This document shows positions 18,101 through 52,000 of a stretch of 64,000 bases of DNA, piece after piece (the stretch's first letter is position 1; the number at the start of each line of letters is the position of its first letter). The translations under genes were made by a program, and so were the position numbers. The notes beneath the pieces are model-generated. The model ran no database searches. It saw only the letters and a program-made list of their open reading frames with translations, and was not told the origin of the DNA. Source of the stretch: Azolla caroliniana (lineage: Eukaryota; Plantae; Polypodiophyta); NCBI GenBank assembly GCA_043228905.1, contig JBHGNT010000011.1, positions 558,001 to 622,000 on the forward strand. The letters run 5' to 3'.

Positions 18101-18635
18101 CACGTTGAGAAGACAAGGGAAAGCTTTTGTAAACGTGGATTTCATGATGGGAAACGATCATGTATCTTTCACTAACTTCATGATTCTTTATGTCAAGAAT
18201 CGGATATGAGTCTTGTGCAACGGAAGAGATATGTGTTATGTGTATGTGTGAGAGGAAAGAGATGAGAGAAGAGAAAGCACAAGATATCTAGATAGATATA
18301 TGAAAGACAAATGGAGTACTCAAGAAGAAGAAGATGTATATTCACCACAAGTAAAATAGCAATTACAAAATGTAGCATTACAAGGACTCACGACCGACTT
18401 AATATGAAGTAGGAGAAGGGTGCTTTATATATAGTCACCCTCTCTCTTCATTAACTAACTACAACAACTACTCTCTCTCGGGGAATGTGAAGACTCATAG
18501 TCATGGGTAATATGTAACTCATTCATTATGTGTCATAGAATATGATTCTATGACACATAGTTAATGTGTAGAGAGTAATGGTGTGACTCTTTACCTTTGA
18601 GTAATCACATATTCTCAAAAGGTGTGTTCACACGT

Positions 18636-19151
18636 TGTCGTGAGATTTTCGTCCATAGGCAGAAACCGAGGTGGAAAGGGCAAGTCGGTGGTGTGCAACA
18701 TGTGCACACGATTACTAGGAAATGGTGTATAGAAATAAGAGGGGAAATTTTATCCCTCATTGTAAGGTCCCTCCCTCCTTGGGCTATAAAAGGAAGGGAG
18801 GGGTCACTTATGAAGGGTTGCCTATTTTGCGTATGAGAGGTATACCACATAGTCTAGAGTTCTTGCCGTTTTAGGGTTAGGGTTTCGTTATTCATCCTTG
18901 GTTAGGGTTTTCTTATAGTCGTTTGGTGCGGCCCATGCAGCCACCATTGTTGTAATCATTCGTTTGTCTTAATATATCTTGTTGAGTATCTTACCTCCGC
19001 CGATCTCTCCTTCTATGTGGTGATCTTAATCTTTCTTCTTCTCCTCTTGAGCTAAGCCTCCATATCATATATTATTCTTTCTCATCTACTCCCTAGTCCG
19101 AGACCCTCGTGGTCCCACCCCTTCTACACGCACGTGCATAGCAACGCGACA
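18636..19151 (+). mobile_element. Solo LTR of the tRNA-Trp Gypsy lineage inserted in the Copia 3' LTR
   Basis: TGTCGTG...CGCGACA termini; ACGT duplicated at 18632-35 and 19152-55; absent from the sister LTR at 52020; TATAAAA at ~18785. Confidence 0.9.
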
Positions 19152-22100
19152 ACGTTGCACTATGTTGAGCTTGATTCTCAACACGCCCCCTCAAGCTCAA
19201 CTCAGGTCGGTTCCTTTCGGTTGATGTCCGCTTCGGCTAGTATCCGGTTTAGACGATCTCCGGTGTCCGCTTTGGCTTGTACCCAGTTCGGACGGTATCC
19301 AGTTTTCTCTTGTAATCCCCCTCAAGCTTGGCAAGTTAGGGATCGTCAATCCAAGGTCTAACATGAATTGCCGAAGTTGGTCAGCTCCTAGGGCTTTGGT
19401 GAAGATGTCAATCGTTTGAAGATTTGTGTCGATGTATTGAAGATCGACATCTTCGGCCTGAACACGCTCTCAAATGAAGTGATAGTGCACTTCGATATGC
19501 TTTGTGCGTACGTGGAACACAGGGTTTTGAGCCAGATAAATACTGCTCATGTTGTCGCAGTAGAGGGGAGTTGGATCCTTGATGGGAACGCCCAAATCCT
19601 TCAAAATCCTCTTGAGTCGTACAGCTTCACATGCAGCCACAACTACACCCTTGTATTCAGCCTCCGTACTCAAAAGAGCGATGGTCGACTGCTTCTTCCT
19701 ACTCCACGAAATCACTCAGTTGCCAAGGGAGAAGACAAAACCAAAGGTTGATCGTCGATCGACTTTGTATCCGGCCCAGTCGACATCCGTGTACCCTTCG
19801 AGTCAAATTGGTGTCGCTGATTTGTAGAGAATGTCATAATCCATTGTGCCGCTCACATATTGCAATACTCGCTTAGCACAATCGAGATGATTATCTCGTA
19901 GAGTTTGCATGAATTGGCTAAGGAGTTGACCGAATAGCTAAGGTCAGGTCGAGTGATTGTGAAATAGATGAGACTCCTGATCAGTTGACGATATAGAGTC
20001 GGTTCGCACTCATCTATGCCAGATCATCCACGTATAGGATGATGACAATCGAGCTTCTAGAGTCGTTTCGTACGTAGAGGGAGTTGTCGGATTTGGACAT
20101 TTGAAAGTCGATTTGATGAAGATATTGCATAATTTTCAAAAAGCACGATGTGCTTGCTTGAGGCCGTAGAGAGGCTTCTTGAGTTGGCATACGACTTTCG
20201 GATTAATGTTGGATTCAAAGTCGGGTGATTGTACCATGTACACCTCTTCTTCTAATTCGCCTTGAAGAAATGCCTTCTTGACGTCCATTTCGTGGAGGTG
20301 CCACCCTTTCGTCGTTGCGAGTGCGATCACGGTCCACACAGTCGCCATCTTTGCCACCTGGGAAAATGTCTCTTCGTAGTCAACTCCATGCGTCTGTGCA
20401 TATCCTTTTGCTACGAGTCGAGCTTTGTAGCGGTTTACGGAGCTGTTGGCGTTATACTTCACCTTGTAGATCCATCTACATCTGATCACCTTCTTGTGCA
20501 GTGAGTGGGGGACAAGATCCCATGTCTTGTTTTTGGAGAGTGCTTGCATCTCCTGATTCATCGCTTCAACCCATCTGGGGTCCTTCGCGGCTTCAAAAAA
20601 CGTTTCCGGCTCTCATATTGTTGCTACCTTCATCATAAAGGCGTAATGGTACGCCATATAATTGTTGTAGCCGAATCAGCTTATGGGGTTCTTTTCACGG
20701 GTGGATCGATGGAGCTTCTCGTTTGCGGATCCTAAGGCTTTCTTCGCTCCATTTGTCCAGATGTCAAGGTCTTCGAACTCACTATCGAGGGAGTGAGTCG
20801 ATTCGTTGCCGTCAAAGTGATCGTCTTTATACTTCGGCATTTTCACTTTCCCTTTGTCCAGCTTCGGACTCGGCCGAGATGTGCCCATTAAGCCTTGTCG
20901 TAATCGGGCTTTCTTCGAACATGCGCGTGGGCTGATCTTCGACTTCTATCTCTATTTCGGTGGATTCCGGGTCGAGCGGAATCGGAGTCGAAGTTGTCTC
21001 TGGTGCGTACTAGGATGCGGACTCATCGAAAACGACGTCTCAACTTACTCGGCTTTTTGAGTTGAGGGGTTATAGCACTTGTACCCCTTTTGCTCTAGTG
21101 AGTATCCTACGAGGATACATTTCTTCAACTTTGGGTCAAGCTTTTGTCGCTTCTCATTGGGGATGTGCACATATGCAATGAAGCCGAATATCCGAACATG
21201 TGATAGGTCCGGCTTCTTTCCTAAAAACTTCTCGTGCGGAGTAAGTTCGTGTACACCCGATGTTGTACACAAATTCATGAGGTATACGGTCGTGTTAGCC
21301 GCTTCTACCCAATACGATTTCGGTATATTCTTCTCGTTCGTCATTGCCCGTGGGACCTCTATTATGTGCCGATTCTTTCGTTCGAATACACTGTTTTAAT
21401 GAGGTGTGTGTTGGCACGAGAATTCTCGTCGGCTTTCGTGCCCATTGCGAACCTGGCCGATTTCATCTCGTGTGAGTCGAGAATGAACATTCAGCCCTTT
21501 GTTCGTCTACGTGAGATGAGTCGGCCCTCTTTTTTTATGAAGCAACTGCCTTGATTAAATCGTACTTGCATCCCTTGCTCAACAATTTGGCTAACGGAGA
21601 CCAAGTTCTTCGTAATGGTTGGTACATGCAAGACATTCTTAATAAAAGTTTCGTTACCTTCTTTGCCGAATGGGATATTTCCGATGTGTCGAATCGGATG
21701 CATAGTGTCGTCTCCGGTTTTGACATAACCAGGTTGACCCAGCTCTCGAAGTTCTCGGAACCATTCTTGATGAGACGTCATATGGTTCGAGGCACCGGAG
21801 TCGACGTACCATACGCCTTCCGAACCGGAGGAACTAGTTGAAATAGAAGCCGACATAGAATTTGCTTTATGTCTCATCACGAACATTCCGCCACGATTGT
21901 CATAGTCAGAGTTGGTGGCATAGTTGGTGAGTTGTCAACTAGTGGAACTCTTCTTTCGGCACTCTTCTTCGTGGTGGCCGATTTTTCCACAATATCTGCA
22001 TTCGATCGAGGTTTGTTGGCTCGAACCGGAATGGAAGCTCCCCCTTCTTCCAAAGGTTCCTCGACGGCTTCTGTCTTGTTGCTGAAATTGCGAGTTGTTT

Positions 22101-22839
22101 TCATACGTCGGGCCTTGTCCGCCTCGTCCTTGGTCGAATCGGCCTCTTCTTGCACAGTCACATCCTCTTCCTCTATCTGAGTGTGAGTAAAGCATGTGGC
22201 CTTCCGGGGCGTTGCTCCTTGTTCAAACATGGTTTTCTTCGACCAACAACATGGATTGAAGATTGAAGAAGAAGGGTGGATTCTCCCGTGCTAGTATGGT
22301 GGTCCTCATCGTGTCGAATCGTGGTGCAAGGCCACCGAGGCATATTTGCACCATCTAATCATCGTCCACATTGACACTATATCGAGCCGAGTGCATCACA
22401 AAGCTCCTTGATCTTCAAGGTGTAGCTTGTGATGGACATATCCCTTTGTTGGATGTTGTTCAACTATTAGCGAAGTTGAAACTTTCGCACGGTTGGGTTG
22501 GCGGCTAAAATCTTTTGTAGATTCTCCCACGCTGTTGTGAAGATTTACGGCATCAGTGTGAAAATTGCGAGGAACATACAAAATCAAGTGTGGTTCTTCA
22601 CACGTGATATGAAACAATAGTCGAAAGGTATTATTTTAGATTAGTTTAATATCTTGGTAGGAAAAGATGGATGTCTTCAAGAGCTTCCGAATGCATTTTA
22701 CTACATATGAAACAGACAACTAAATATCAAGTTATGTGAGTGTGAAGTTTGAGAAGAAGAGGAAAAAAAAACTATGAGATATCCCACATAGATAGGACAC
22801 ATCAGAATCCTAGATTATATAAGCAGAATGGTTAAGGTG

Positions 22840-23220
22840 ATTCAAACCCACGATCAGGTCGGGGTTCGCATGGCTCTGTCGTAGTTCGATCGGGATGTGC
22901 CTGCACACACAATCGTGTCACACGGCTCGATCGGGTGGGGGTTCGCACAGTCACAGTGCATGGCTTTGTCGTAGTTTAGTTAGTTCACACGGCTCGATCG
23001 AGGTTCGGTCGCGACAGACGCACACACAATCGTGTCACACGGCTCGATCGAGTCGGGGTTCGCATGGTCACGGCGCATGGCTCTGTTGCAGTTTAGTCGG
23101 TTCACACGGCTCGGTCGTGGTACGGTCGCAACGGACGCACACACAGTCATGTCACACAACTCGGTCGGGTCGAGGTTCGCATGGTCACGACGCACAGCTC
23201 TGTTGCAGTTCGATCGAGAG
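22840..23220. repeat. Degenerate tandem repeat (~60-65 bp units) in the E2 LTR
   Basis: Recurring CACACAATCGTGTCACACGGCTCGATCG and GGTTCGCATGG. Confidence 0.8.
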
Positions 23221-25799
23221 CTTGGATGTAAATTCTCATACATGAGAGCTTGGATGAGTGACATGGTCATCATACATCACATGTGATGGATGAACTCCGA
23301 AAGGCAAACATGCATGTCTTGCACCCGCACATGCATCGTATGCATGGAGGCATCTATCAAAGAGTGGATGAAAAAGAAGAAAAGGGGAATTCTATATACT
23401 AATCAAGAAATTAATGATAAGAAAATTAGTTATCCTATTGTTGATGTATCTTCTCCCTCAAATCTAAAATCAATGGTTCAATTTCTATCTCAATCTACCT
23501 TAAATACTTTCTCGCTAAAGCTAGTACAAACTTCGAATCCTTCCGGTCCAGGACCCCGACGGTTCCGCTTCAAGATCCGCACATAGTGACGGATTTTCAC
23601 AACATAATTAAGTGGTGAACCCGACGTGAAAGAGGCGGTAGGAAGGATCAAGTCGAGGATCGACCGATACTTGGAGATGGCATCCTCAAGCAATCAAGCG
23701 AGAGAGTTCGAAAGGATGATGGTAATCGTCGAACAAATGATGAGATCTCGAGACAACGATGCGAGCGTGGAGAAGGCTGTCGACCGTGTTGTGGAGCTCG
23801 AGGGTCAATCTGATGGAAGGAACATTACGAAGTTCCTTGACACATAGAAAAGGGAGATGAATTAGAGGGATGTGTCTGAAGCACGTCAAATCGCAAGTTT
23901 CAAGAGAGGTGTCGCCAACAACATCCAAAGGCAGGTCATCGAGCTTCAAGAAGGGAAGACAACATGGTCCGAGTTCGAGAAAGCAATATTAGCAGAGTTC
24001 GCGACGAAAGATTTGTCGAGGATGACTTGGCATGTCTTGATGAAGTGGATAGAGAAGAAAAATAAGAAGATGAGCGCCTTGAGGGTGTACGATGAGTTCG
24101 ACCAAATGTTTAATCGTCTCCCCGCCACAGACCAAGTGCTACTTGAGGAGGACAAATCTTTGTACTTCCTAAAAGCTATGGATATGAAGGATAAACGAGA
24201 ATTGCGGACTCTCCTCAAAGATGATACCCAAGCGAACAAACTTGTGGCAAACTGGATTGCGGTGAAGCTAGCGTGCAACATGCTCGACAAGCGTCGTCAA
24301 TGGGTTGATGACACTGACTTGGTAGGATCAACCAAGGAGAAAACGAGACAACCAAAAGTGGTTGAGCCGCCCCAACAAAGTAACCTGGAAGAAAAGAAGA
24401 TTGATGATGACATCATTGAAGAACTAGCGAAGAAGTTCGAGACAGTCACGCCAATGAACATGAATCATCGGGGCCCCAAAGGAAAAGAACCCTTTAGATG
24501 CATGTGGTGCGATAGCATGGACCACATGAGAAGGGATTGTGCAAGCCTTCGACGCCATTCGACAAAATATCGTACACATGGATGACAACATGATCTACTT
24601 GAATGAAACCAGAAGACCTCTGCAAGTGAATTTCGAAACAGGGTGAATGAAGAAAGCTATGGAAAATGCCGAGGCGACTCATGTGGATGCGATGCACTAT
24701 GTTGCATTGGCCGGAATAAGAGTCGGGAAAGACAAAATTGAAGCTGCTAGAGCGGGAGCAAAGTTTTGGTCTATCGTTCTCGAGTATGAGAAGAAGGGAA
24801 AAGTCACTTCGAACGAGGTAGAGCTTGCAGACCGAAGTGTGCAAAGTATAATCGGATGGTCGGATCCAGTGGATGACAACACCATACTCGCGGAAGTGAT
24901 GTGTGACAACCACAAGGTGTTCGTGGATGGAAAGAGAAAAAGAATGGAAGGGCAAGACAACCCATCAAAAAGGCATGAAACAAGGAGTGTGAAAAAGAAA
25001 GAAGATGCAGAAGCAAGTCAAGCTTTACGAACGGAGGAAGGAGAATCAAGTCGAAAAGGGGAGTCGAGCAAACGAGTTGAAGAAACGGTTCAGCCCGTGA
25101 GGGTTGATGTTGAAGACCCCGCGCGGAAGACAAGATTTATGCCTACCTATAAGCTAAGGTCGGACATAGAGCAGACGACAGATCTGAAGAAGATTCTCGA
25201 TGAACGAGTTCTTGATAGCCACGTGACCTTGTCCTTGAGGGGATTGCTCGGCATTCCAAAGAAGGAATTCCATGATACAATCTTGGACCTTGTAAAGAGA
25301 AAAAGGCAACAGTCGGATGAGGAAGAAGAGAAGCCACTAAAAGCAAAAACAAATATCGTAACGATGGCAAGGGACAAAGTTGATGAAGATATGGTGGACA
25401 GCCACTATACTCGACCTCATTGGGCACGAGCGACAAAGGAGCCGCCGGTGAAGATCGGGGAGAAGAAAGAGACCGTTGTCGTGTGAATCTTCACACACTA
25501 TATTAAAAAAAAATGAAATAATTATTTTAGATTAGATTAGTAGCTTGTTATAGAAATATGGATGTACTCAAGAGTTTCAAAACGCATTTTACTACATACA
25601 AAATATACAACTCCATATCAAGTTAGGTGGACATGAAGCTTAAGAAGATAGGGAAAATAGAATTTTGAAGTATCCCACATAGATAGGAAACTTAAGGCCC
25701 TAGCTATATAAGCACATTGAGATCCCTCATTTTTCATTTGTGCTAAGAGCAGTTTGGCCACTTTGTCTAGATGGATGAATGTGGCCAAGTTCCCAAAAA

Positions 25800-26140
25800 C
25801 CAATTGGTAAGCAATCTAGAACCGGCTGGTAATGGAACTAGAATCGGTCGGTAATCAATCCGGAACTGGACAGAAAGCAATCTAGAACCGGCCGGTAAGC
25901 AAAAATTGGAACCGACCGGTAAGCAAACTTGAAGCGCCGGAAAGCAAGCAGGAACCGGTCGGAAAGCAATCCGGAATTGACCGATAAGCAAATTGGAACC
26001 GGTCAGGAAGCAAACTGGAACCGGTCGGTAACCAAACTGGAACTGGTTGGAAAACAAACCAAAACCGACCGGTAAGCAAACAAGAACCGGTCGGTAAGCA
26101 ATCCGGAACCGATCGGTAAGCAATCCGAAACCGGCCTATA
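25800..26140. repeat. 11/22-bp tandem array (AAGCAATCCGGAACCGGTCGGT-like) in the E3 LTR; shorter version at 48715-48875
   Basis: Read directly in both LTR copies. Confidence 0.88.
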
Positions 26141-27838
26141 CTCAAATCAGAGCCGGCAAAATCAATAATCAGATGGTGTCGGAAACCGGGCGGATCCGAC
26201 AACCGGCGACCGGACGAGGCTGGACGTGGACCAAACGGATAAAGTAAAGAAAACTAAAGTAAAGGTCATGTGGACGGTCACATGCAACTAAAAGAAAAAG
26301 CAATGCAACTAAAAGTAGAGGCCATGCAACTAAAAGTGGGAAGATAAAGTAACATGGAGAGGATGATCAATGGAGAACAGTAGATTATTCCATTCTCTCT
26401 CCATATTTTTTCTTTTCTTTTCCTTCTTAGTTCTCTTATCTTATCGAAGCCATATCTCTCATAAACCCTAATTTCCTTATGGAAACCAAAAACCCTAATT
26501 TTCCCTACGGAAGCCAAAAACCCTAATTTTCCATACATAAGTTATTGAACTCATAAACCATAATCTCTTATCAAAGCCAAAAACCCTAAATTTCTATTGA
26601 ATCCATATTTAGTTTCTTCTAATCTATTATTCTAGTAATCTCCATAAGCTAAACTTTGTAATCTCAATCTTGGGATTGATTGTAATCTTCCTTTCTATTT
26701 GTTAATGAAATTTGTCAATCTTTCTTATTTCGGTTAATTCTTAGTACATAAACACACAAATTTGATATTCTCTGGTCGGAGGCCTCGGGGTCCTGCCTCA
26801 AGTTCATGTATCCTCGTCGTATTTTCACGACATCTTTGGTGAACCCGACGTGAAAGAGGCGGTAGGGAGGATATCAAGTGCAATGATGGCTTCCACAAGC
26901 GGAACTCAAGGAGAGGAATTAACGAAAGGCATCGTGTCCGTAGTGGAATACATGCTGAAGGTGAGAGATCGAGAAGCTTTAATCAACAAAGCTATTGATC
27001 ATACGGTTGAGATAGCTGGACGATTTGGTGGCAAGAACATCACGGATTTTCTTGCTACCTATCGAAATGAGATGCAACAAAGGGATGTCAATGATCTCAA
27101 ACAAATTTCTAGCTTCAAACGTGTGGTGGAACCAGGGATCTGTGAGCACGTTGTCGTGAAGAATTTCGGCCAAAGGCAGAAACCGGGAAATATTGGCTAC
27201 ATCGGCGGGGTGCAGCATGTGCGCTCACCCTTGTACATTTAGTGTGAATAACGAGGGCGCCTTTATGGCGCCAAAAAGTAATCAAGTCGGGACAAGAATC
27301 CCATGTAATAAGGGATTTATCCCACGATGCTACGGATCCCTCTCCTTGTTCTATAAAAGGAAGGGAGCGCCCTTGGTGAAGGGGTTGCCCATTTTGTATT
27401 AGTAGGGTATACCATTAGATTAAGAGACGTCCTCTCTTTCTCTTTCCCTTCCTCTTATTTAGGGTTTCGTTTTTCTTCTTCTTGCCTCTACTTCTTCCTC
27501 TTCGTCATTCTGAGTATTGAGCCTTGGCATCTCGTGTTTCTGTTTCCTACCCGTTCTCTGTGCAAGACCCCGCTCGGCACGACAAGCCCGAGAGTTCCCC
27601 GACCGGCGGCTTGGCAGTAGATGATTGTTGTAACCTGAGCTACTTAGGTCGGGCTCGATACCAATATTGTATCTTAGTCTTGTAATATATGCATGGAGGG
27701 TTCTGCGTATCGATGTTTGTGTGGGTGTTTTGGTGTTCTCTTACCTCCGTTTCTGTACATAAAGGCGTGAGTTGGGTCGGCGTGGTGTGTGTGTGTGGCT
27801 GTGAGTTGGTGTCAAGCGCGCGCTCTCTCTCTTTCTCT

Positions 27839-28586
27839 TCAAGAAACCATAAACAAGCAAGGTGAAGAGATTAGGACGTTAATGAAAGAGAATACTAAGC
27901 TCCAAAGTGTTGTCATTGAGAATGAAAGTCTTAAACAAGTGGTTGCAAAACTTCAAGAAGAGATTCAAGAATGTAAAAGAGCTTCTTTTGAAACAAATGA
28001 GCGCCTTAACAAGATTGAGTTGAAGGAAGCATTAAAAGAAGAAAAATTGGACACGATGAGGCGGGATGTAAGTGAGATGAAAAATGTATGTACAACGAAG
28101 TCATGGGCCGATGTATGTGGTGGGGATGTGCTATCAAACTCATCTAATATGCATGTGATGCATCAAGAGAAGAATATCGAAAACATAGATGTCCGAGAAT
28201 TGAAAGAACGTGAACGACGATCAAAGAACATTGTCATCCGTGGGATTAAAGAAGAGAGTATTGAAACACCCGCATCTCTTGGAAAGGCCATTGGTGAATT
28301 TTTTAGCATGCATTATGGGATGTCAGATGTGAATGTATATGGGGCACACCGAGTTGGGAAACATGGTGTTAGTCGCTCCGGAGAAAGGCCTATTGTATGC
28401 ACAATGACAGATGATACAAAGCGGCGGATCATACTCGAAAATAGTTGGGTATACCTCAAAGGTACACAATGCTTTGTGAGTGAAGATCGTACTATCTCAC
28501 AACAAAATGCTCGTCGTAAAGCATATGAAGAAAGATTGAAAAACAAGGTTAAGGATGTGCCTAAAGATGGAAATGTAGGCAAATAG
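27839..28586 (+). CDS. LINE ORF1 (coiled coil plus RRM-like nucleic-acid chaperone), probably 5'-truncated
   Basis: Heptad-rich N-terminal part, then RSKNIVIRGIKE, AHRVG, RPIV and FVSEDRT, typical of L1/CR1-type ORF1. Confidence 0.85.
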
Positions 28587-31500: not shown

Positions 31501-31967
31501 TGCAATGCCAATGTATCATGACATGGGACAAATGTGGAGGCTCACGCTTCACACATTATACTACACATGTTGCACCTAACTACAAAACCATATTCTTCGC
31601 GGAACGGGGAAATCGTACACATCCATACATGTTAGAGCCCATACCGTTATCTTCCATTCGAACCATTGCTTCCATGCAACTTAGCTCACATGCATTGCGA
31701 TGTGAAACAGGGCGTTGGGGTACAAGTGATGAGAGTGGTCGGTTATGCGCACTTTGCCCTAAACAAGTTCGCGAGTCTGAGTATCACACTTTGATACAAT
31801 GCTCTGCCTTTGATCATATTCGACCATGCTTTACACATCTCTTCGATCGAGCCCAATCTTTGCATGAATTCCTCTCACAACCACAATGTGCACTCTCGAT
31901 TGCAACATTCATTGGTAAAGTTCTTGAACATCGAGAGTCACTACTCACTTTCACACATATCACGTGA
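28587..31967 (+). CDS. LINE ORF2: AP endonuclease, reverse transcriptase and C-terminal CCHC finger
   Basis: WNCNG, LVETW, GGVA, GDMNAR, SVIDY, SDHRP; NYRTI, QAGFR, DFKKAFD, QGCPLSP, YADD, KYLG; SHALRCETGRW..CALC..EYHTLIQC. Confidence 0.96.
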   Translation, partial: GHVIYETNPRLLRLCFWNCNGYPWNAGFGIEEFTDDSDITLLVETWEHDTQRIQGLGNYNVHSLIWKKNPRQRRGQGGVACLIKKEIEKYVSIIKNDENKCYIWLKIETPNDLPTFVVGCYIPHQDSNFYACLDKDQPFANLEDDIVYFKSKGEVIVFGDMNARTRSFQLDSQESFMPHISRMQEDMQMYNRSSSDEKDPDQFGKLLLQMCNSTGLLIANGISLWPNTNGFTCRKHNGNSVIDYVLLSECILDRIHKFSLGEWTPESDHRPLCIDLKCMHRFDCEKAIEDNKQPHLSMNLKRAPMYSKMVEDMLQMTKVQHGATLECKWEAFKKVILSCTNKCFSTNRTSWKCTKKLRKKWFDKECHEARKCLMVLDVVKDKENYQKHLHEYKRLIQRKRRIWEVTQQLIQTQEKAHACAKFWGNLKGKRVESYGDLTLHDLSMHCKNLYELSLAGKMMCYGSLSHMPPFFTIEDICIGLKKLASRKASDLQCIKAEMLKWTGKEAHIWIRDMFNDALQHGMPYDWTTNWIKPLHKGGDINNVNNYRTIMVGSLMAKLFGCIMESKISVWAEKSGKRAYGQAGFRKHHSTIDHLITLRVLTEESRLKGKGLYCCFVDFKKAFDMVPREHLWRRMEELEVPSEYMLAISRIYEKVICCVRMRDKLSDFFKSTIGVKQGCPLSPTLFGLCIDELEEMVTKFAKEECVEEVAIGNVVIMLLLYADDVVLFANTLGDAQKLMKALEKFCMHTKLSVNSSKTKIMLVKSQKRDKPCIMYNNEPLECVESFKYLGLEVPSNHRWNECATRRLEAGKRAYYAFENTCNLGDIKCWVLKKYLFDTLVTPVLLYGVEVWGGSIPKSMWKEFENVQKHFLTKFLQVKKQTPYTLLLLETGSLPIEIMAMERVVEYMLKVQKSPSHRLPRIAWEASKKIQKTHKSKILCSGWMQDIEKWFGRWDARHLLHDASLDSSVNEAFLQCQCIMTWDKCGGSRFTHYTTHVAPNYKTIFFAERGNRTHPYMLEPIPLSSIRTIASMQLSSHALRCETGRWGTSDESGRLCALCPKQVRESEYHTLIQCSAFDHIRPCFTHLFDRAQSLHEFLSQPQCALSIATFIGKVLEHRESLLTFTHIT

Positions 31968-40100: not shown

Positions 40101-43100
40101 ACCATCGGTTCGACAACTGTCGGGTCTACGCACCCGATCTCCTCCGGTGAGAATGCGAAAGCCTTCCCGTGCCTCCCGAGCATTCTCCAAAACTAATCCT
40201 CCTCTGCCGGCAGTAGGAAGCCCCCCCCACCGACCTTGAGCTCCCGTAGCGTTATGTCGGTGAACCGGTGCCCTATGCCAGCCGGATTTCGTAAACTTGG
40301 GTCCGACGCGACCCCTTTTATCCGCTCCTCGTTGCCCTCCGGCAAGGGTGCCGCGACTGGCCTCACCTTCCGGTCCACAGTCTTGTATTTCGTATCCATA
40401 CGGGTCGTCCGATCCGACCCGATCCTTTCCCCGAAGTCTGCGATGACTTCGTACATTCCCATCGACCCTACCGGAACGGTCCAGTCTTCCCTAAGGTCTT
40501 CACCGATCACCTTTCGTAGTTCGCCCAAGGTGTCTTCAAAAGAGACCGCCTCCACGGCGCCGCTGATGTCCTCATCGGGGAAGAGGACTCCGCATCCCTT
40601 GAGCCGCTCCTCCGCTCGCTTCCTCTCCCTGCCGCTGACACTAGTTATAGTACAACCTCCGCTGTCGGAGAACCAAGATTTCCTACCTATGGTACAAGTC
40701 TTCTTCCGTACTGTACATTTGTGGGGTTCTTCCCGGGTGTCCGGATTGTCGCGGCCCCACGCCTTGACAACCCTCTCTAAAAATCCCCTCGGGTTTCGCT
40801 GCCGAGGGCCTCGCGGTTACGCTCGTGGTTTGGTCGCACCGTTAGGAACTAGACCGAGTGACGCCCGTCCTGGCTCTTGACTCTTGCATAGGTTGAACCG
40901 TTGTCCAGCACCTTGGTCTCCATCCGTGCCGCCGTGATATATGGCTCTCCTAGTATAACCGGATGCGAGGACGTCTCCTGCACGAAGAAGTGTTGGTCGA
41001 TCTCGACATCGCCGATTTTCACCCGTACGTTCGGACAGGCCCCATGTAGTTCTTCCGTGGCGCGCGTCGCTGCCCGTATCTTCCAGCCATGCTTGGTGTT
41101 GATCGGCCATTTACACTTCTTGTAGAAATCCATGGACATCAGGTTGATTTTGGATCCATGGTCTACCAACGCCACCACCGGTTCCAGAACGTTGTCAATC
41201 CGTACAGGGGTTTCCGTAGTCGCCCTGGCCCAATGCGGCTTCGTGTAGTGGCTTCCCGCCAGCTCATCTTCCAGGGCTCCGTCTTCTAGGTGCGTGGTTC
41301 ACACTTCCATTAGCTTCTCCGGTTCCGGCTCCGGCTCCGGCTCCGTCGAGAGCCTCTTCCGCTTCACCAAGTCTACGATAGAGTCGTGGAACTCCCTCTT
41401 GGCGATCCCCAGCACCTCCCGCAACGACAGCTCCACTTTACTGTCGAGGATTCGCTCTTCAAGGACCTTATGTAGGTTCGTTGCTCTCTCGATTTCGGTG
41501 CTCAACTGAAACCTCGCCTGCTTCTTCCCATCCGACACGCCTGGGTTGCCGGCACCGGTCAGTCTCGGTCCGAACCGGGTCTCATACCTCGGGGAGCCAA
41601 CCCCTCCGGCCTTTCCTGCCCATTTGTCCTCCACCAGAACCTCATAGTTCTTGCAAGCGGCTTCTACGAAGCCCATTTTCTCTTCGACCGGATCGTCCCA
41701 ACCGGTGACCTCCTGGACCCGCTGTTCCGCGCGGTCCGCCTCTTCCTTCCTCAGCCGAACTCCGGAGAGGCCTTCTAGCACTAGCGGCCAGAATCCGGAG
41801 TCCTTCACCTTCCGAGTCTCATCACCCCCGACCCGAATTCCCGTCGACACCGAGTAGTTGACGGCTTCGACGTGCCGTGCCGTGGCCTCTTCCATCAACC
41901 TCTTCATTCCGTCACGCCCCGTATTCAGTTCTAGGGCTCTCCGGGTCTCCCTCGCATGCACCCGCCCGTTCCAGAGGTACACCACGTTGGTCCTGAGCGC
42001 GTCGGCGAAATCCGCGCAATCCTTCCGAATGTGACCGATCGTGTCACACCACATGCACCGATGCCCAGCCGGCGGCCTCCGGTCGCGAGGTTGTTCACCG
42101 CTGTCTCTCCGGGCCCGTGCGATCTGCAGGTCGCGCACCATCTGTGTTAGCTCCTCCAGAGCCGCTCCTCCGGATGGGCCTCTGACCACGTCGCTCAATG
42201 TCGTCCCCGACTCCGGCCAGATTCGGGTCTCTTCCTTCCTCCCAGCCGGCACCGAAACCGGCTCCTCGAGCCTCCTCCTCGGGACCAGCCCCGACCCCGA
42301 CGTGCTTCCGTCGCTCCAATCGCGCCGTTTGTCGAAACGGCTGCAGACCCGTTTTACCACGGCCCAATCTGTCATGAGCCCTTCGTTTGTTTCCAGTAGG
42401 GGACCCACCTTTTCCCTGTCGAGCGCATCCACCGACTTGACAAACAGCAGCACTAGACTTGTTTCGAGCACCGTCCGGTTCAGCGTTGACAGCCGCGCGA
42501 ACCGTTTTTTGAACTCCTGGAGGAACACCGACGTGTTCTTCCCTTTTCCGGGGCTTTCCACCCACGCCATGAAGTCCCGCCTTGACAGCCGGAGCGAGTC
42601 GTCAAACCCGTACTTCTCGAGGAGCTGCAACTCGAACTCCTCCCAAGTCTGGCATCTGGCCAACACCTCGAGCACCTCCGCATGGATGCCCGGCGTCACC
42701 ACTTGAGGGAATCCGGACAGCCGCTTGTACACCGGGATATCCCTCATGATCATTTCGGCCCGGTAAGCCTCCAAATAACTTGTGGCGTCTTTCCCTCCGA
42801 AACGGCCTATAGAGCCGACGATCGATTCAATGGCTCTATCGAGGGTACCCGTTCCCTCACGAGCGCTCACCAGCCGGTCGATGGCCACCGCCATTGCCTC
42901 TGCTAGCTCCGATCCCCTCATCTTACAACTCCTTTGCCGCCCTTTCACGTCGAGTTCACCAAAGATGTCACGTTGTTACGTGCGTACGTGTAGAAAGGGG
43001 CGGGACCACAGGGGTCTTGGACCGAGGAGCGAGAGAGAGAGAGAGACAGAGAGAGATTCACCGACACGTAGAAGCTAGAAAGAGAGATATAGAACATAAC

Positions 43101-43587
43101 ACTTAATTATAATGGCAAGAGATTACAAACTCCGACAGTTACAACCGACAAAGCGGCGACAGACCTGACACGGGGACCCTACTCACGCACACCGACGACA
43201 GTCACACGACTCAAAAAAAAACAAAGGGGAAAGGGAGCGACTCTGTTGGAAGCACACGGGCTGTCCACGAAGCAGAGGCAGCGACCTCCCGACACCCGCA
43301 GAGAGCGACGATTCGAGTTCGAGTCGAAGAGAGAGAGCTCCGCCTTCCGTTCTGCATCAACACTTCCCTCCCTCCTCGCGCGCGATGCCTCGTTTTCTCT
43401 TCTCCTCTTCCCTTTATTCCATGTCCCCCTCTGGGATACGCACAATCCCCCTCTAATAAATGTGTGTGGCTTAGTAGTCACATCCACCGGTTCGTGTACA
43501 AAGTATCCAGTCACGCGTCCATCCGTGTAGGGGCCGGTTTACGCGCTTTCTCTCCGATTCCGCCTATGGCTTGTTTTTGTCACGACA
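37132..43587 (-). mobile_element. E5: GC-rich Ty3/Gypsy element inserted in the E4 LTR; RNase H deleted
   Basis: Similar LTRs of ~620 bp at 37132-37750 and 42966-43587; PBS TGGTGAACTCGACGTGA next to 42966; PPT TGGGGGTGCA; gag 41299-42948, protease LVDHGS 40849-41178, RT 39220-40183, integrase 37900-38990; TSD GCAC/GCGC. Confidence 0.93.
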
Positions 43588-44759
43588 GCGCGTACGTCCG
43601 AAAACGTCCACGCGGCCATGCACACACACGCGCGTACACCCGAAGCATGCACACCACATAGTGTAGCCCAAGTCACCTTGAACATTCTATGCTCCACACA
43701 TTGATAGAATAAATATGTTTTGGTTTCCCTTATATATTCTGGGTTCCAATGTTGTCCTATCTATGTGGGATATCTCACAATTTTGTCTTTGCTTTTCTTT
43801 TCTTCAAACTTCACACTCACATAACTTGATATTTGTTTATCCGTTTTATGCGTAGTAAAATACACTATGAAGCTCTTGAACACATTTATCTTTCTATATC
43901 CATATATTAAGCTAATCGTAAATAATTATTTTACTAGTTTTCATATCGTGTGTGAAAAACCACACGACACCGGTGGACCGAGCCAACCTACTCGGATGGA
44001 AGTCGAAGAATCAATGAAGAAAGGAAAAGAACGAGCGACACCGACTTATAAGCTAAGGTCAGACATAGAACAAACAACTTATTTGCAGAAGGTCCTTGAG
44101 GAGAAGGTTTTAGACAGTCATGTCGACCTTACTTTGAGAGAACTGCGTGGGATCGCGAAGAAGGAGTTCCATGATACTATCGTGGACCTTATAAAAAGGA
44201 AGCCGCAACAATCTGATGAAGAGGAGGAAAAAACAAGTGCCATAACCATGGCAAGATCAGAAGAGGAGGAAGAAGAAGAAGAATTGGTGGCGGATAGCCA
44301 TTACTCTCAACCTCATTGGGCAAGAGCGACAACGGAGACGCCGGTGAAGATCGAGGAGAAGAAAGAGACCGTGGTAGCCTTGATTGACCATGGCTCAGAG
44401 ATCCACCTCATGTCGACCGAGTTATACAAGAAAGGAAGATGGCCGATTAATACAAACCACGGATGGAAGATTCGAGCGGTGACAAAGGCCATGGAGGACT
44501 TGTATGGAGCTTGCCCCAATGTTAAAGTCACGATTGGGGATGTTGAGATTGATCAACACTTCTTCGTGCAAGACTCGGCTTCGCATCCTGTCATCCTAGG
44601 ACAACCATATATAACATCGTCCCGGATGGAGACTAAGGTGTTTGATAACAGAGCAGCCTTCGCGCGCATCAAGAGTCTTGATAGTAAAATATATGTTCAA
44701 TTCCTAACGGTGCGAGCTAATCACGAAAGGAACCGAGATAGCCTTGGAGGCGAATCCTC

Positions 44760-44822
44760 GGATTTATAAAGCGGACTATTGAAGCATGGGGCACAAATAG
44801 TCCGACCAATCATAAGTCCCCA
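44760..44822 (+). promoter_or_regulatory. Putative -1 programmed ribosomal frameshift signal (heptamer plus pseudoknot) of E3; homologues at 49973-50034 (+) and 40721-40786 (-)
   Basis: G GAT TTA TAA ends gag-pro; pol continues in the -1 frame; stem CGGACTATT/AATAGTCCG; loop TGGGG pairs with downstream CCCCA. Confidence 0.8.
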
Positions 44823-45373
44823 CAAGGAAGCAGAGTGCGTGTATTGCAAGGAGAAGCAACATGCGTCACACCTAGCGGCGCATGCAAACTAAGACTACTC
44901 AACAAGAAGGAAAAGTGTTAGATACAAGACTTCGAGGAGGTGCTGAAAGAAGAAAGCATAATCGAAGAAGAAGAATTCGTGTCTCATATTCTGGAGGAAG
45001 CCTCATTTAACGACACCATCGGCGAAATCGAGGAAGTCGTGGACTTGAGCTATCCTCACCATCAACATGTGATTTTGGTTAACTCTCCCTCGCCCTCTCT
45101 CTTCTAATCGTGTTTTAATTATGTTTCTCTAGTTCGTAATAGCACCTCTCTCTTTCATTTTTATTAGTATGGTAATCCTCTTCCCTCCCCGTAACCCTTG
45201 TTTTTAAATTTTAATTATGTTTTTCGTCTCGTATTTTAGTTTTAATCTTAGGTTTATTTATGTTTTAATCTCTCTCTCTCTCTCTCTTTAGTTTTAATCT
45301 TAGGTTTATTTATGTTTTAATCTCTCACTCTCTCTCTCCCTCTTTAGTTTTAATCTTAGGTTTATTTATGTTT

Positions 45374-45417
<44 letters not shown>

Positions 45418-46049
45418 TTTAATTAGTATGTTAATACCCCTCCCTTTAAGCCTATCTTTTAATTTCTTTCTAATTACCCCACCCTTTACTTTATTTTTAG
45501 GTTCATGTTTCTAGATTTAGATTTTATGTTTGTTAGTTTTCGGGTTATGTTTTTTGTTTTAGTGTTTATGTTTCTAATCTTAGTGTTTAAACCCCTACCC
45601 CTCTTCCTTTTTGTTATTCCTAATCATGCCGGCTCCCTCTCCTTTCTTCTACCTCGTCTTCGATTCGGGTGCGCTCAAATCGAGCGTGGTGTTCCTCTTC
45701 GCCTACCTCTACCCGCCGATGATCGACCATTCCGCACTCCTTGTTCCGACCGTAAGGTCCATAAACTTACAATCATAAGTCCCCACAAGGAAGCAGAGTG
45801 CGTGTATTGCAAGGAGAAGCAACATGCGTCACACCTAGCGGCGCATGCAAACTAAGACTACTCAACAAGAAGGAAAAGTGTTAGATACAAGACTTCGAGG
45901 AGGTGCTGAAAGAAGAAAGCATAATCGAAGAAGAAGAATTCGTGTCTCATATTCTGGAGGAAGCCTCATTTAACGACACCATCGGCGAAATCGAGGAAGT
46001 CGTGGACTTGAGCTTTCCTCACCATCAACATGTGATTTTGGTTAACTCT
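44807..46049. repeat. 280-bp direct duplication (44807-45086 and 45770-46049) enclosing a 683-bp foreign insert
   Basis: One mismatch seen between the copies (AGCTATCC vs AGCTTTCC); the insert is pyrimidine-rich with (CT)n-linked repeats. Confidence 0.92.
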
Positions 46050-49000
46050 GTCAACATGTACGCTATCATCGATGAATATCATCAAAGCATCTTGATGGAG
46101 GAAGTTGAAGTCAATACAAAATATAAAATCGTGGATAGGAAAATCAAGCCAGTTGCAATTCCGCTACTGGAAGATAGCTGGCAAAAGATGAAGGAAGTTG
46201 CAGAAGATCCAAGCTTAAGGAATCCAAATACAATTGGTCACGTCTTCACTGATGAGACGAAAGGGAAGCTACGAGTTGGAAGGGAAGATTTCCTCCTCCC
46301 TGAAGAGGAGCGGATGTTCCGTGGAATGCTTGAAAGACATGGGAAGGCTTTCGCATTTTTCCCACAAGAAATCGGGTGTGCTAATCCAAGGATGGTAGAG
46401 CCAATGGTGATCTTCATGGTGCCGCATGTGCCTTGGAATTTGAAACCGATACCGGTTCCGAGAGCACACTTACCAAAGTTGATGGAGCTCTTAAAGGAGA
46501 AGGTGAATATGGGAATTCTAGAACCGTCAAACGCTCCTTATTCTAATAGGTGGTTCACGGTGACGAAGAAGAATGGATCGTTGCGATTCATTCAAGATCT
46601 TCAACCCGTCAACAAGGTGACAATTCGGAATGCTAGAATCGGTCTGAGTGTGGATGAATTTGCCGAGGTGTTTGCGGGCCGGTCCATCTACTCCATCGGC
46701 GATCTCTACTCTGGCTACGATCAATTCCAATTGGCGGTCGACAGTCGTGACATTACAACCATGAGAACTCCAATCGGGTTGGTGCGGATATGTACCTTAC
46801 CTCGAGGCGCAACGAACTCGGTGACTCATATGGTGAATGCCATGAACAAGGTCTTGAAGGATTGCATCCCGGATATCACGATGTCATTCTTGGATGATAT
46901 CCCAATAAAAGGATGTTCGGATGAAGAGAAGGATGAATCAAAAGATAAGCATGAATGTAGAAAGTTCGTCGTGGATCATATGAAAGATTGCGAGAAGGTG
47001 CTTCAAAGGCTTGAAGATGCGAATTTGACATTTTCGGGAGAAAAATCCGCATTCGGGCAACCGGAGATCTTGGTGGTAGGTCACTTGTGTGGAGCATACG
47101 GTCGGAAGCCTTCGCCATCCAAGGTGAATGCAATCCAAGACATGAAAGTAGAATGCATAACCCAAACGGAGGTTCAAAGGTTCCTTGGAGCATGCACATT
47201 TTATCATATTTGGATTCCACACTACGCCCACATCGATGTGCCATTATATGGTCTACTAAAGAAGAAGCGGAGGTTCGAATGGAAAAGTGAGCATACAATC
47301 ACCATCCAAAGGCTAAAGAAATTGTTGATGGAGGCACCTGCATTACGGAAGGCGGACTATTCAGACGGCAAGCCCATTTTCATGACTGTGGATACTAGTC
47401 CAATCAGAATCAGATGGGTTATCAACCAAGAAGATGAAGATCACAACCGATATGCAATTCGGTTTGGCACAGAAGTGTTAAGTGATAGGCAAAGAAGGTA
47501 TGCCCAAGTGAAGAGGGATCTATGGGGAATCGTCTCGGCAATCAAATCTGATCGTGATTACCTTATTGGAGCAGAAGTCATAATTTAGACAAATTGCCTA
47601 CCAATTTTGGGTATGATATCTGGTTGTAATACACCAGATATTGCCATGTTGCGTTGGATTGCATATATCAAATCACTCAACACGGAGATCTGTCATGTAG
47701 CTGGGAAGTGTAATGTCGTTGCAGACATGCTATCACAAGCGAGATACGACGGAGAAGAAGATCGACATTATGATGAAGAGGATGTTGGCTTGGATTTCTT
47801 TACAAGTTCCTACACTCGGGTGCTGACTACTTTCATAGAAGAGGATTACGAGGGCGAATTCGTGGAGATCGGGAAATACTTGAGTTCTCTCCAAAAAGAT
47901 GAATCATGGTCGACGGAAGACTTCCACCGAATTCGGAAGAAGGCATACAAGTATTTCCTTAAGGATGGAGCTCTTTGGAGGCATGCGAAAAAGAAGAATG
48001 GGACTCCAATGAGAGTTGTCTGCAAGCTAGAAGACCGACAAAAACTAATGTCTGAATTTCATGATAGTGTTTTTGCAGGTCATCGAGGAATATGGGCTAC
48101 GTTTGCGAAGCTTAAGGAGAAATATTGGTGGCCGGGCATTTACAAAGATGTAGCAGCTTATGTGGAAACATGTAAGGAATGTCAGATGTTTTCAAATATT
48201 CGTCATCGAGATGAACTTCATCCGACTTACCCGTTGGCTATGCCTTACAAGTGGATGGTGGACATCGCGATGATGCCAATGGGGCGATGGCAGATGAAGT
48301 ATCTTGTGCTCGCGAGAGAGGATCTTACCAATCAAGTTGAAGGGCGAGCATTGAGAACTAAGGAGACATCATCGGTATGCAGATTCCTTCTTGAAGATGT
48401 TATTTGCAGATATGGATGTGTCGGCAAGGTAGTGGCTGATAGAGGCGAGCTAGACGCCAATGAAGCTAGAGAATTCTTCTTTAGGATGGGAATTAAATTA
48501 TCTCTTACCATGGCGTATAATCTGGAAGCAAATGGGAAAGTGGAACGTGGACATGGACTGATTGTGAAGGCTCTAGTGAAAGCTTGCCATGGGAAAATAG
48601 GAGAATGGTTGCGTCTATTGCCATTTGCACTATGGGCTAACAGGACAACTCATAGCACGGTGACGGCCACTTTGTCTAGATGGATGAATGTGGCCAAGTT
48701 CCCAAAAACTGACTGGTAATCAAATGGAACCGGAACTAGCCGGTAAGCAATTCGGAACTGGCCGGAAAGCAATCCGGAACATATCGGTAAGCAAACCGGA
48801 ACCGGTCGGAAAGAAACCGAAACCAGTTGGAAAGCAAACCAGAACAGGCCGGTAAGCAATCCGGAACCGGCCGGTACTCAAATCGGAGTCGGCGAAATCG
48901 GCAATCGGATGGTGTCAGAAACTGGGCGGATCCGACAATCGGCGACCGAACGAGGCTAGACGTGGACCGAACGGATTGGATGGGCAGCGATCAAGACGGA

Positions 49001-52000
49001 TTGATGATAGGATCATGTGGCTAATTAAAGTAAAGTAAAGAAAACTAAAGTAAAGGTCATGTGGACGGTCGCATGCAACTAAAAGAAAAAGCCATGCAAC
49101 TAAAAGTGGGAAGGCAAAGTAACATGGGGAGGATGATCAACGGAGAACAACAGATTATTCCATTCTCTTTCCATATTTTTTATTTTCTTTTCCTTCTTAG
49201 CCCTCTTATCTTATCGAAGCCATATCTCTCATAAACCCTAATTTCCTTACAAAAGCCAAAAACCCTAATTTTCCATACGGAGGCTATTGAACTCATAAAC
49301 CATAATCTCTTATCAAAGCCAAAAACCCTAAATTTCTATTGAATCCATATTTAGTTTCTTCTAATCTATTATTCTAATAATCTCCATAAGCTAAACTTTG
49401 TAATCCCAATCTTGGGATTGATTGTAATCTTCCTTTCTATTTGTTAATGAAATTTGTTAATCTTTCTTATTTCGGTTAATTCTTAGTACATAAACACACA
49501 AATTTGATATTCTCTGGTCGGAGGCCCCGGGGTCCTGCCTCAAGTTCACGTATCCTCGTCGTATTTTCGCGACACCGTGGTAGCCTTGATTGATCGTGGC
49601 TCGGAGATCAACCTCATGTCAACCGAGTTCTACAAAAAAGGAAGATGGCCAATTAATACAAACCACGTATAGAAGATTCGAGCGGCAACAAAAGCCACAG
49701 ACGACTTGTACGAAGCTTGTCCCAATGTTAAAGTCACGATTGGGGATGTAGAGATAGATCAACACTTCTTCATGCAAGAATCAACTTCGCATCCTCTCAT
49801 CCTAGGACAACCATATATCACATCATCCCAGATGGAGACCAAGGTGTTTGATAATGGAGCAGTCTTCACGTGAGTCAAGAGTCTTGAGTCTTGACAATCA
49901 AAGATATGTTCAATTCCTAACAGTGCGAGCTAATCATGAAAGAAACCGAGATAACTTTGGAGGCAAATCCTCTGATTTTTAGAGAGGACTATTGAAGCAT
50001 GGGGCACAAATAGTCCGAGCGATCACAAGTGCCCACAAGAAAGTAGAGTGCATGGATTGCAAGGAGAAGCAACATGTGTCACACCTAGTGGCGCATGTAA
50101 ACTAGCACTACTCAACAAGAAGGCCAAGCGTCGGATACAAGACTTCGAGAAGATACTAAAAGAAGAAAACATAATAGAAGAAGAAGAATTTGTGACTCAT
50201 ATTATGGAAGAAGCCTCATTTGACGACACCATCGGCGAAATCGAGGAAGTTGTGGACTTGAGCTATCTTCACGATCAACGTGTGATTTCGGTTAACTCTG
50301 TCAACATGTACGCAATCATCGATGAATATCATCGAAGCATCTTGATGGAGGAAGCTGACATCAACACAAAATATAAAACGGCGGATAGAAAGATCAAGCC
50401 AATTGCAATTTCGCTACCGAAAGATAGCTGGCAAAAGATGAAGGAAGTCACTAATGATCCAAGCTTAAGGGATCTGAAGGCAATAGGTCATGTCTTCACC
50501 GAAGAGACAAAAGGAAAGCTACAAGTTGGAAGGGAGGATTTCCTCCTCCCCGAAGAGGAGTGAATGTTTTGTGGAATGCTTGAGAGACATGGGAAAGCCT
50601 TCACCTTCTCTCCATAAGAGATTGGATGTGCTGACCCAAAGATTATAGAGCCAATGGTGATATTTACGATGCTTCATGTACCTTGGAACTTCAAGCCGAT
50701 ACCAGTTCCAAGAGCTCACATTCCGAAGTTGATTGAGCTTCTAAAGGAAAAGGTTAAGATAGGGATTCTTGAGCCGTCCAATGCTCCCTACTCCAATAGA
50801 TGGTTTACGGTGCCGAACAAGAACGGGTCCTTACGCTTTATTCAAGATCTCCAACCCGTCAACAAGGTGACGATCTGAAATTCCGAAATCAGTCCAAGTG
50901 TAGATGAATTTGTCGAGGCCTTCGCAGGAAGATCAATCTATTCGATTGGTGATCTCTACTGGGGCTATGACCAGTTTCAATTGGTCGTAGATAGCAGAGA
51001 CATAACGACAATGAGGACGTCAATCGAGTTGGTAAGGATGTGCACCTTACCCCAAGGTGCGACAAACTTCATAGCCCACATGGTGAATGCCATGAACAAA
51101 GTGTTGAAGGATTGTATCCCTGATATCACAATGCCCTTCTTAGATGACATTCTGATCAAAGGATGCTTGGTGGAAGAAAAAGATGAATCAAAAGATCAAG
51201 ATGGATGTCGGAGATTTGTATCAAACCATATAGAAGACTGTGAGAGAGTGCTACAAATATTCGAAGGAGCCGGACTTACATTCTCCGGAGAAAAGTCGGC
51301 ATTCGGCCAACGCGAAGTCCTAGTAGTGGCATATTTGTGCGGACCATACGGACGGAAACCCTCTCCTGAGAAGGGGAATGCTATGTACTAATCAAGAAAT
51401 TAATAATAAGAAAATTAGTTATCCTATTGTTGATGTATCTTCTCCCTCAAATCTAAAGTCAAGGGTCCAATCTCTATCTCAATCTACCTTAAATACTTTC
51501 TCGCTAAAGCTAGTACAAACTTTGAATCCTTCCGGTCCAGGACGCAGCGGTTCCGCCTCACGATCCGCACATAGTGATGGATTTTCACGGCAGCGCTTCC
51601 TTCGGCGTCTCGGCTTCTCGAATGTAGCCGAGCATGTGGTCGTGAACACAAGTCGCCAAGCAATACATCACTCAGCTTGCCGCTTTCTCCCATGTTGCGT
51701 AGTCGGCGTCTTTCGGGTCGGGTCAGTTTTCTTGTGCTCCTTTGATGTAACCCCAATAGCCTTGGCCGACAAGGTGTTGGTGCATCTTGTACTCCCAAGA
51801 TCAAAGTTGTTTCGATTTAGCTTCTCATTAGGGAGAGCGCCCCCCATTTGAGTATTCATTGTCGACGAAGATTTCTTCCTTCTTTTCTTTTCCTTCTCTC
51901 TCGAATACAAGCTATGTAGTCACACTACGATAGCGATGGACCAGTTCTTCTCGAACATCGGCGTAGAACACAACACACTCGGATGGGCTAGATCGAGCTA

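What the first reader, a model, noticed from the sequence alone, without database searches (positions are those of the whole stretch)
18632..51596. Gypsy lineage that integrates on CpG: all six TSDs are 4 bp and NCGN
Seen: the six insertions of the TGTCG...CGACA lineage have TSDs ACGT (18632/19152), ACGC/GCGC (22529/51593), CCGT (25473/49575), ACGT (27148/32160), CCGG (33285/43970) and GCAC/GCGC (37128/43588; the mismatch fits CpG deamination). The unrelated elements here have CTTTA (Copia) and ATAT (E6). Known: most plant LTR elements make 5-bp TSDs with weak sequence preference, and heterochromatin targeting is usually attributed to chromodomains; I see no chromodomain after the E5 integrase. 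Inference: this integrase reads a CpG (possibly methyl-CpG) at the centre of the target. Genic DNA here is CpG-poor, so this would steer insertions into other transposons and explain the nest.
Basis: partly seen in the sequence, partly recalled or inferred. Interest (0 to 1): 0.82.

Follow-up and report, generated by a model that had tools for sequence, protein, structure and literature searches.

The report
Known CpG-targeting Phygy-type retrotransposon nest
Six nested jumping-gene insertions all sit on a present or decayed CG pair and duplicate four bases, as do most other copies of the family, but this habit is already published for the Phygy retrotransposons, to which these likely belong; whether the enzyme senses methylation is untested.

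Summary
Four TSD pairs are perfect NCGN and two carry one CpG-decay mismatch. Two homologous empty sites show a 4-bp duplication. Outside the window, 54 of 62 unique LTR flanks have a central CG (60 of 62 with decayed CA/TG), against 3.7% background.

It is not new. Neumann et al. 2019 report that all 186 Phygy elements have 4-bp NCGN TSDs. These elements fit Phygy: no chromodomain, no extra RNase H, relatives in liverworts and a fern, and a PBS recalled as tRNA-Trp. No reference Phygy sequence could be put in the tree.

The likely mechanism is a 4-bp staggered cut with a bend at the central step plus base-specific reading of CG. Methyl-CpG dependence is untested. CpG preference gives only about a 3-fold pull toward transposons here and does not by itself explain the nest.

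The scan noted a Phygy nest elsewhere in this genome and NCGN sites in another, likely fungal, genome. Side result: element 33289-43969 has two unrelated LTRs, switched at the PBS, inside one perfect CCGG duplication.

The parts
18636..19151 (+). Solo LTR, short type, inside the Copia 3' LTR; TSD ACGT 18632-18635 / 19152-19155
   Evidence: sister Copia LTR has a single ACAT at 52408-52411
22533..51592 (+). Phygy-type element, long LTR (5' LTR 22533-23604, PBS 23613-23630, gag, partial pol, truncated 3' LTR about 51368-51592), inside Copia gag; TSD ACGC / GCGC
25477..49574 (+). Phygy-type element, long LTR with 22-bp repeats (5' LTR 25477-26832, PBS from 26837, gag-pol, integrase end and start of 3' LTR deleted near 48665); TSD CCGT / CCGT
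   Evidence: single CCGT at homologous site 44369-44372
27152..32159 (+). Solo LTR, short type, holding a LINE (endonuclease + RT ORF 28587-31967, CTAT tail ending near 32038); TSD ACGT / ACGT
33289..43969 (-). Chimeric non-autonomous element: long-type 5' LTR (43969 to about 36028, split by the 37132 element), PBS from 36019, gag-only interior, PPT, short-type 3' LTR 33922-33289; TSD CCGG / CCGG
37132..43587 (-). Phygy-type element with two short LTRs (43587-42966 and 37750-37132, 94% alike), PBS from 42961, gag-pol, PPT; TSD GCAC / GCGC
37743..38870 (-). Integrase frame of the 37132 element (P0001): DDE core, SH3/GPY-F C-terminal domain; the acidic tail lies in another frame and ends before the PPT; no chromodomain
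18191..52439 (-). Copia element that hosts the whole nest; 5-bp TSD CTTTA 18186-18190 / 52440-52444 (control)
52712..56748 (+). Unrelated Gypsy element E6 (pol 25% identical to the family); 4-bp TSD ATAT 52708-52711 / 56749-56752 (control)

Best explanation
These are nested chromodomain-less Ty3/Gypsy retrotransposons, likely of the Phygy clade, that insert at NCGN with a 4-bp duplication, likely because the integrase bends the target at the central step and reads the C and G bases directly, whether or not they are methylated. Shown: the 4-bp duplication, the central CG, the missing chromodomain. CA/TG centres are read as CpG decay after insertion. The nest is read as a mild CpG bias plus tolerance of insertions inside dead transposons.
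For: 54 of 62 unique 3' flanks have CG at positions 2-3, with 4 CA, 2 TG, 1 GA and 1 TA. Background CG is 3.7% (binomial p 1e-68; 3e-43 at the highest single-locus rate). Other offsets give 0-10 of 62. Of 10 unique 5' flanks, 7 are CG, 2 CA and 1 TG (one start, L110, doubtful). In runs X1-X3, contigs leave the reference at the LTR end or after the CG (rows 43969, 43972-43974); no row for 43970 or 43971 is among the 18 shown, and 19 rows are hidden. The LTR's own terminal CpG has decayed in 12 of 62 copies, enough to explain 6 CA/TG centres. Flexibility alone does not fit: CA+TG is about 14% of background but 6 of 62 centres, and TA is 1 of 62. Foamy virus integrase (4-bp TSD) selects a central YR step and contacts bases with Ala188 and Arg329 (PMC4422553 passages); it is the top sequence and fold match. 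Glu101 aligns three residues after the second catalytic Asp, where foamy virus has Ala, and is E in 31 of 32; Gln271 and Lys277 are invariant in 32 of 32. Phygy: 186 elements, 100% 4 bp NCGN, no extra domain. Fly ZAM-subgroup elements prefer CGCG (PMC5408687 passages); that flies lack appreciable CpG methylation is recalled.
Against: No biochemical or methylation data. The loop 267-280 has pLDDT under 50, so its equivalence to Arg329 is not shown. No reference Phygy sequence was available (REXdb files too large), so clade membership rests on shared features. 120 of 121 outside loci come from one series of assemblies, so they are independent insertions but probably one host or a few related hosts. 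29 loci without a unique strict LTR end or enough flank were dropped; counting the 28 with a missing or ambiguous end as misses gives 54 of 90. The 37132 element (6.5 kb) is shorter than the Phygy range of 7.7-10 kb.
Confidence: 0.62

Rival explanations
1. The integrase prefers methylated CpG, by reading the methyl groups or the altered shape of the mCpG step. It would then target silenced DNA without a chromodomain, and this would drive nesting.
For: No chromodomain. All six window insertions are in other transposons. Flanks have higher CpG (median 3.2%) than host tiles (1.7%), and target CpGs later decay. Phygy is reported enriched at liverwort centromeres (PMC12885004 passage) and often nested in Tcn1 in moss (PMC6911290 passage). 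A 1992 paper on CpG methylation and retroviral integration in vitro was seen only as a reference line.
Against: None of this separates CG from methyl-CG: flanks of randomly chosen CpGs are CpG-richer too, and decay shows methylation only after insertion. Half of the outside flanks show no repeat hit and 20 of 58 are CpG-poor. CG-centred targeting occurs in flies.
Confidence: 0.18
2. The integrase only needs a flexible central YR step; the CG excess comes from chromatin context or a host tethering factor (for example a CACGTG-binding or methyl-binding protein).
For: YR selection is general for 4-bp integrases. The commonest site is ACGT (23 of 62), followed by G in 30 of 62 overall, which resembles CACGTG. 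E6 has a central TA.
Against: Base-exact, register-exact CG with TA at 1 of 62 is hard to get by tethering, and a factor bound on the site would block it. The base before 5' ends was T5 A3 C2 of 10, not mostly C.
Confidence: 0.15
3. The CG belongs to the element end or is an artefact of boundary calling or of a CpG-rich neighbourhood.
For: LTR ends are CpG-rich and the nest has up to 9% CpG.
Against: 27 LTRs end at the same place directly before the PBS spacer with no CG there. Empty sites carry the 4-mer once. Positions 1 and 4 vary between copies and match across each window element. The local null is 2e-8.
Confidence: 0.02

Closest known systems
Phygy clade, non-chromovirus Ty3/gypsy (Neumann et al. 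2019, PMC6317226; passages and supplementary file MOESM5 read; MOESM1 and the FASTA not readable)
   Same: 4-bp NCGN TSD, no chromodomain, no extra RNase H, compact gag-pol interior, PBS recalled as tRNA-Trp (81% of Phygy)
   Different: Short-LTR members are 6.5 kb against 7.7-10 kb. A slight flank bias (A first, T last, G/T after) is added here.
Ginger1 DNA transposons (Bao et al. 2010, PMC2836005; passages read)
   Same: Gypsy-like integrase with GPY/F motif, TGT ends, 4-bp TSD CCGG (75%) or CCGT/ACGG (24%)
   Different: DNA transposons with TIRs in animals; here LTR, PBS, PPT, RT, and ACGT is commonest
Drosophila ZAM/Tirant errantiviruses (PMC5408687; passages read)
   Same: Gypsy-group elements with a CG-centred palindromic target (CGCG)
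   Different: AGT...AnT ends, env gene, animal host, narrower motif
Prototype foamy virus intasome (PMC4422553 passages; PDB 3oym and others)
   Same: 4-bp stagger, central YR step, closest solved integrase
   Different: Weak preference for any YR step, not near-strict CG
TatI and Selgy clades (same supplement)
   Same: 4-bp TSD; TatI also uses tRNA-Trp
   Different: TatI has an extra archaeal RNase H, not found here; Selgy uses tRNA-Ala; neither is listed with NCGN

Membership tests
Phygy | 4-bp TSD | tested here: met
   six pairs; two empty sites. Pairs could not be read from metagenome contigs, whose LTRs are collapsed.
Phygy | NCGN target motif | tested here: met
   54 of 62 CG, 60 of 62 with CA/TG; 7 of 10 at 5' ends
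Phygy | No chromodomain after integrase | tested here: met
   0 of 32 integrases hit a chromo family at E 0.05; acidic tail, stop, PPT. No positive control was run; the end of the 25477 element's integrase is deleted.
Phygy | No extra (archaeal) RNase H, no extra ORF | tested here: met
   Pfam on window pol pieces and five close pol homologues shows RT, RNase H and integrase only; integrase runs up to the PPT
Phygy | PBS complementary to tRNA-Trp | tested here: inconclusive
   One PBS in all four 5' LTRs (one has a C>T change) and 27 loci. It is the exact complement of an abundant CCA-ended 18-nt plant small RNA (miR894 family, PMC5846777 Table 3). The Trp assignment is recalled; three DNA scans found no tRNA gene.
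Phygy | RT/RH/INT phylogeny with reference Phygy sequences | not testable with these tools
   REXdb files too large. The tree without references puts the three window RTs in one starred clade with three metagenome proteins; their grouping with Riccia, Adiantum and Calypogeia is not starred (82/90) and also holds a long Olpidium branch.
Phygy | Element length 7.7-10 kb (descriptive; the paper calls size relatively insignificant for classification) | tested here: inconclusive
   37132 element 6.5 kb (below range); 25477 element about 8.4 kb without nested inserts but with a deletion and a duplication
Chromovirus clades (Tcn1, Galadriel, Tekay, Reina, CRM) | Chromodomain after integrase | tested here: not met
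TatI | Archaeal RNase H domain in pol | tested here: not met

The most novel reading that the evidence does not exclude
Phygy-type integrases read methyl-CpG at the centre of the target through their own catalytic and C-terminal domains: a chromodomain-free way to aim at silenced DNA, shared from mosses to ferns, with different families swapping LTRs at a common primer site.
Probability: 0.15. Interest if true: 0.72.

Novelty: new member of a known kind. Interest (0 to 1): 0.27.

Why it matters
The NCGN preference is published, but as one sentence and one table cell; a search for 'NCGN' with 'retrotransposon' found 3 papers, and by their titles only Neumann 2019 concerns it. This work gives it numbers in another host and shows it is CG-specific and not just YR flexibility. 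It also names candidate residues. If methylation turned out to matter, a plant integrase would read an epigenetic mark directly, a simple route to transposon islands in seed-free plants. If not, it remains one of the few sequence-specific plant LTR integrases.

Tried and rejected
No whole genome is held, so no genome-wide logo or CpG-weighted null was possible. The search for related loci in viral contigs found no relative. The LTR motif in viral contigs gave 2 loci, not analysed. The first read layout gave only one useful row (15 contigs, loose end beginning ACGT, agreement 0.44). Paired TSDs from metagenome contigs were unusable: the pairs disagree and one LTR has both PPT and PBS neighbours, which points to collapsed repeats. 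Confirming tRNA-Trp failed: 31 chance hits without a tRNA, 0 hits, and paper searches that gave no Trp assignment. No Physcomitrium-labelled protein appeared among the rows listed (120 of 139; 120 of 160; 31 of 31). The Atlas search gave generic integrase clusters. The predicted model (mean pLDDT 65) matches intasomes but leaves the candidate loop unresolved. PMC7466625 passages did not link RLG2/RLG3 to Phygy. 'Phygy' with 'fern' gave 2 papers; the one read in passages only lists the clade. LTR-pair divergence (1.2% Copia; 4.6-7.1% nested elements; transversions 0.6-2.2%) could not order the nest.

Full report
Observation. The six junction pairs are in the sequence as stated. Four are perfect (ACGT, CCGT, ACGT, CCGG) and two differ by one base in a way that fits CpG deamination (ACGC/GCGC, GCAC/GCGC). 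The length of 4 bp is fixed by two empty sites. The gag of the 25477 element carries CCGT once at 44369-44372, the position homologous to where that element sits in its host. The sister Copia LTR carries ACAT once at 52408-52411, where the 18636 solo LTR sits in the other LTR. Homologous gag proteins align without a gap across three insertions. Local CpG frequency at the six sites is 3.5-9.7%, and the product is 2.2e-8. The control elements have CTTTA (Copia) and ATAT (E6).

Anatomy. A Copia element (18191-52439, minus strand) holds the nest. The solo LTR 18636-19151 lies in its 3' LTR and the element 22533-51592 in its gag. 25477-49574 lies in that element. 27152-32159 (solo LTR with a LINE inside) and 33289-43969 lie in the gag of 25477. 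37132-43587 lies in the 5' LTR of 33289-43969. There are two unrelated LTR types, long with tandem repeats and short. All four 5' LTRs share one primer-binding site, and two 3' LTRs keep the PPT. Gag matches DUF4100 weakly; pol has RT, RNase H and integrase. Named relatives among the listed hits are from Riccia, Calypogeia and Adiantum at roughly 40-75% identity and Chara at 36%, so the host is likely a seed-free land plant. An earlier scan note calls it likely a fern; I did not test that.

Independent test. No genome was held. I scanned metagenome contigs with a motif inside the short LTR that does not include the terminus or flank: 121 loci, with the scan stopped at 51 of 64 parts. A fixed rule for the LTR end dropped 25 without a strict end, 3 ambiguous and 1 too short. 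27 were followed by the PBS and 65 by outside DNA, 62 after removing 3 duplicates. Positions 2-3 were CG in 54, CA 4, TG 2, GA 1, TA 1. Background CG was 3.7%, p 1e-68. With the 28 missing or ambiguous ends counted as misses it is 54 of 90. Position 1 was A40 C11 G7 T4, position 4 T32 C14 G13 A3, position 5 G30 T16 A12 C4, and ACGT 23. 5' ends gave CG 7, CA 2, TG 1 of 10. The LTR's terminal CpG is decayed in 12 of 62, so the CA/TG centres need no other cause. 120 of these loci come from one assembly series: many insertions, few hosts. For the long LTR type, contigs of three runs laid on 43932-43986 end at 43969 (10, 17, 12 contigs) or at 43972-43974 (26, 34, 19 in sum). No row for 43970 or 43971 is among 18 shown (19 hidden). 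Depth in bin 43972-43973 is about half that of bin 43970-43971, where random flanks would give roughly a sixteenth (the aligner may bridge one mismatch, so this is semi-quantitative).

What is known. Neumann et al. 2019 (PMC6317226, passages) state that, with the exception of Phygy elements that prefer NCGN, plant TSD sequences are highly variable. Their supplement lists Phygy as 186 elements, 4 bp in 100%, NCGN, tRNA-Trp 81%, no extra domain, 7.7-10 kb. A nesting study confirms 4-bp TSDs for Phygy and frequent nesting in Tcn1 (PMC6911290 passages). Phygy is annotated in a liverwort, enriched at centromeres (PMC12885004 passages). The elements here meet the TSD, motif, no-chromodomain and no-extra-RNase-H features. 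The PBS is the complement of a CCA-ended small RNA (PMC5846777 Table 3) that I recall as the tRNA-Trp 3' end; scans did not confirm it. A tree with reference Phygy sequences was not possible. The per-element table of that paper, which I could not read, may hold the full TSD list. CG-centred targets are also known for Ginger1 and fly ZAM-subgroup elements.

Mechanism. Foamy virus integrase cuts with a 4-bp stagger, unstacks a central YR step and touches bases with Ala188 and Arg329 (PMC4422553 passages); it is the closest solved relative. A bend at CG fits this. Bending alone would admit TA, CA and TG, which are rare here, so base-specific reading is inferred. Glu101 (31 of 32) lies at the position matching Ala188, and the C-terminal loop has invariant Gln271 and Lys277. 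These are candidates only; the loop is unresolved in the model. Nothing here separates CG from methyl-CG.

Nesting. CpG is 1.5-1.8% in host DNA and 4-9% in the gypsy and Copia internal pieces and gypsy LTRs of the nest, but 1.1% in the Copia LTR part next to the 18636 insertion and 2.4% in the LINE. That is about a 3-fold pull, and host DNA still has a CpG every 55-70 bases. Outside flanks have a median of 3.2% CpG; 20 of 58 have 2.5% or less and 29 of 58 show a repeat hit, though assembly favours unique flanks. CpG targeting can contribute to nests but is not shown to explain this one.

The chimera. 33289-43969 has a long-type 5' LTR and a short-type 3' LTR with no overall similarity. Locus L035 carries that short LTR (84% over its length) followed directly by the same PBS and gag start (88% over 342 bases), so the switch lies at the PBS. 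The TSD is perfect and the host gag is intact on both sides. Either plus-strand strong-stop DNA of one family jumped to the minus strand of another at the shared PBS, or a second element inserted into the CCGG left by the first and the two later recombined at their primer sites. This is one case, and L035 is itself an assembled repeat contig.

Verdict. Real and strongly supported, but a known property of a known clade; the mechanism is still open. Interest 0.27.

Noticed in passing
window 33289-43969 (-); L035:292-1240 (oriented): One insertion with two unrelated LTRs, switched at the PBS, inside a perfect CCGG duplication; the interior is gag-only. It suggests strand transfer between families or re-insertion into an old TSD followed by deletion.
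   Followed up: partly
window 23613-23630, 26837, 36019, 42961: The PBS is the exact complement of the plant small RNA filed as miR894 (PMC5846777 Table 3), which is likely a tRNA 3' fragment and could silence this lineage.
   Followed up: partly
window about 27650-32038, 7757-9210, 12313-13913: LINE with endonuclease and RT and a CTAT-repeat tail inside a solo LTR; a 92% copy and a 74-81% copy lie in the host region.
   Followed up: no
L055, L082: Family members inserted within about 20 bases of another copy's LTR end, where CpG is dense.
   Followed up: no
window 44807-45086 / 45770-46049: A 280-bp direct duplication (99.6%) inside the gag-pol junction of the 25477 element.
   Followed up: no
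window 52712-56748: Unrelated Gypsy element with a 4-bp ATAT duplication and an apparent foreign insert near 54360-54790.
   Followed up: no
window 25750-26160, 22860-23210, 36660-37130: Long-type LTRs share their ends but carry different CpG-rich tandem arrays in the middle (22-bp, about 119-bp and about 180-bp units).
   Followed up: no
window 16313-17113 (-): Host gene exon with an FAD-binding domain lies about 1.1 kb from the nest.
   Followed up: no
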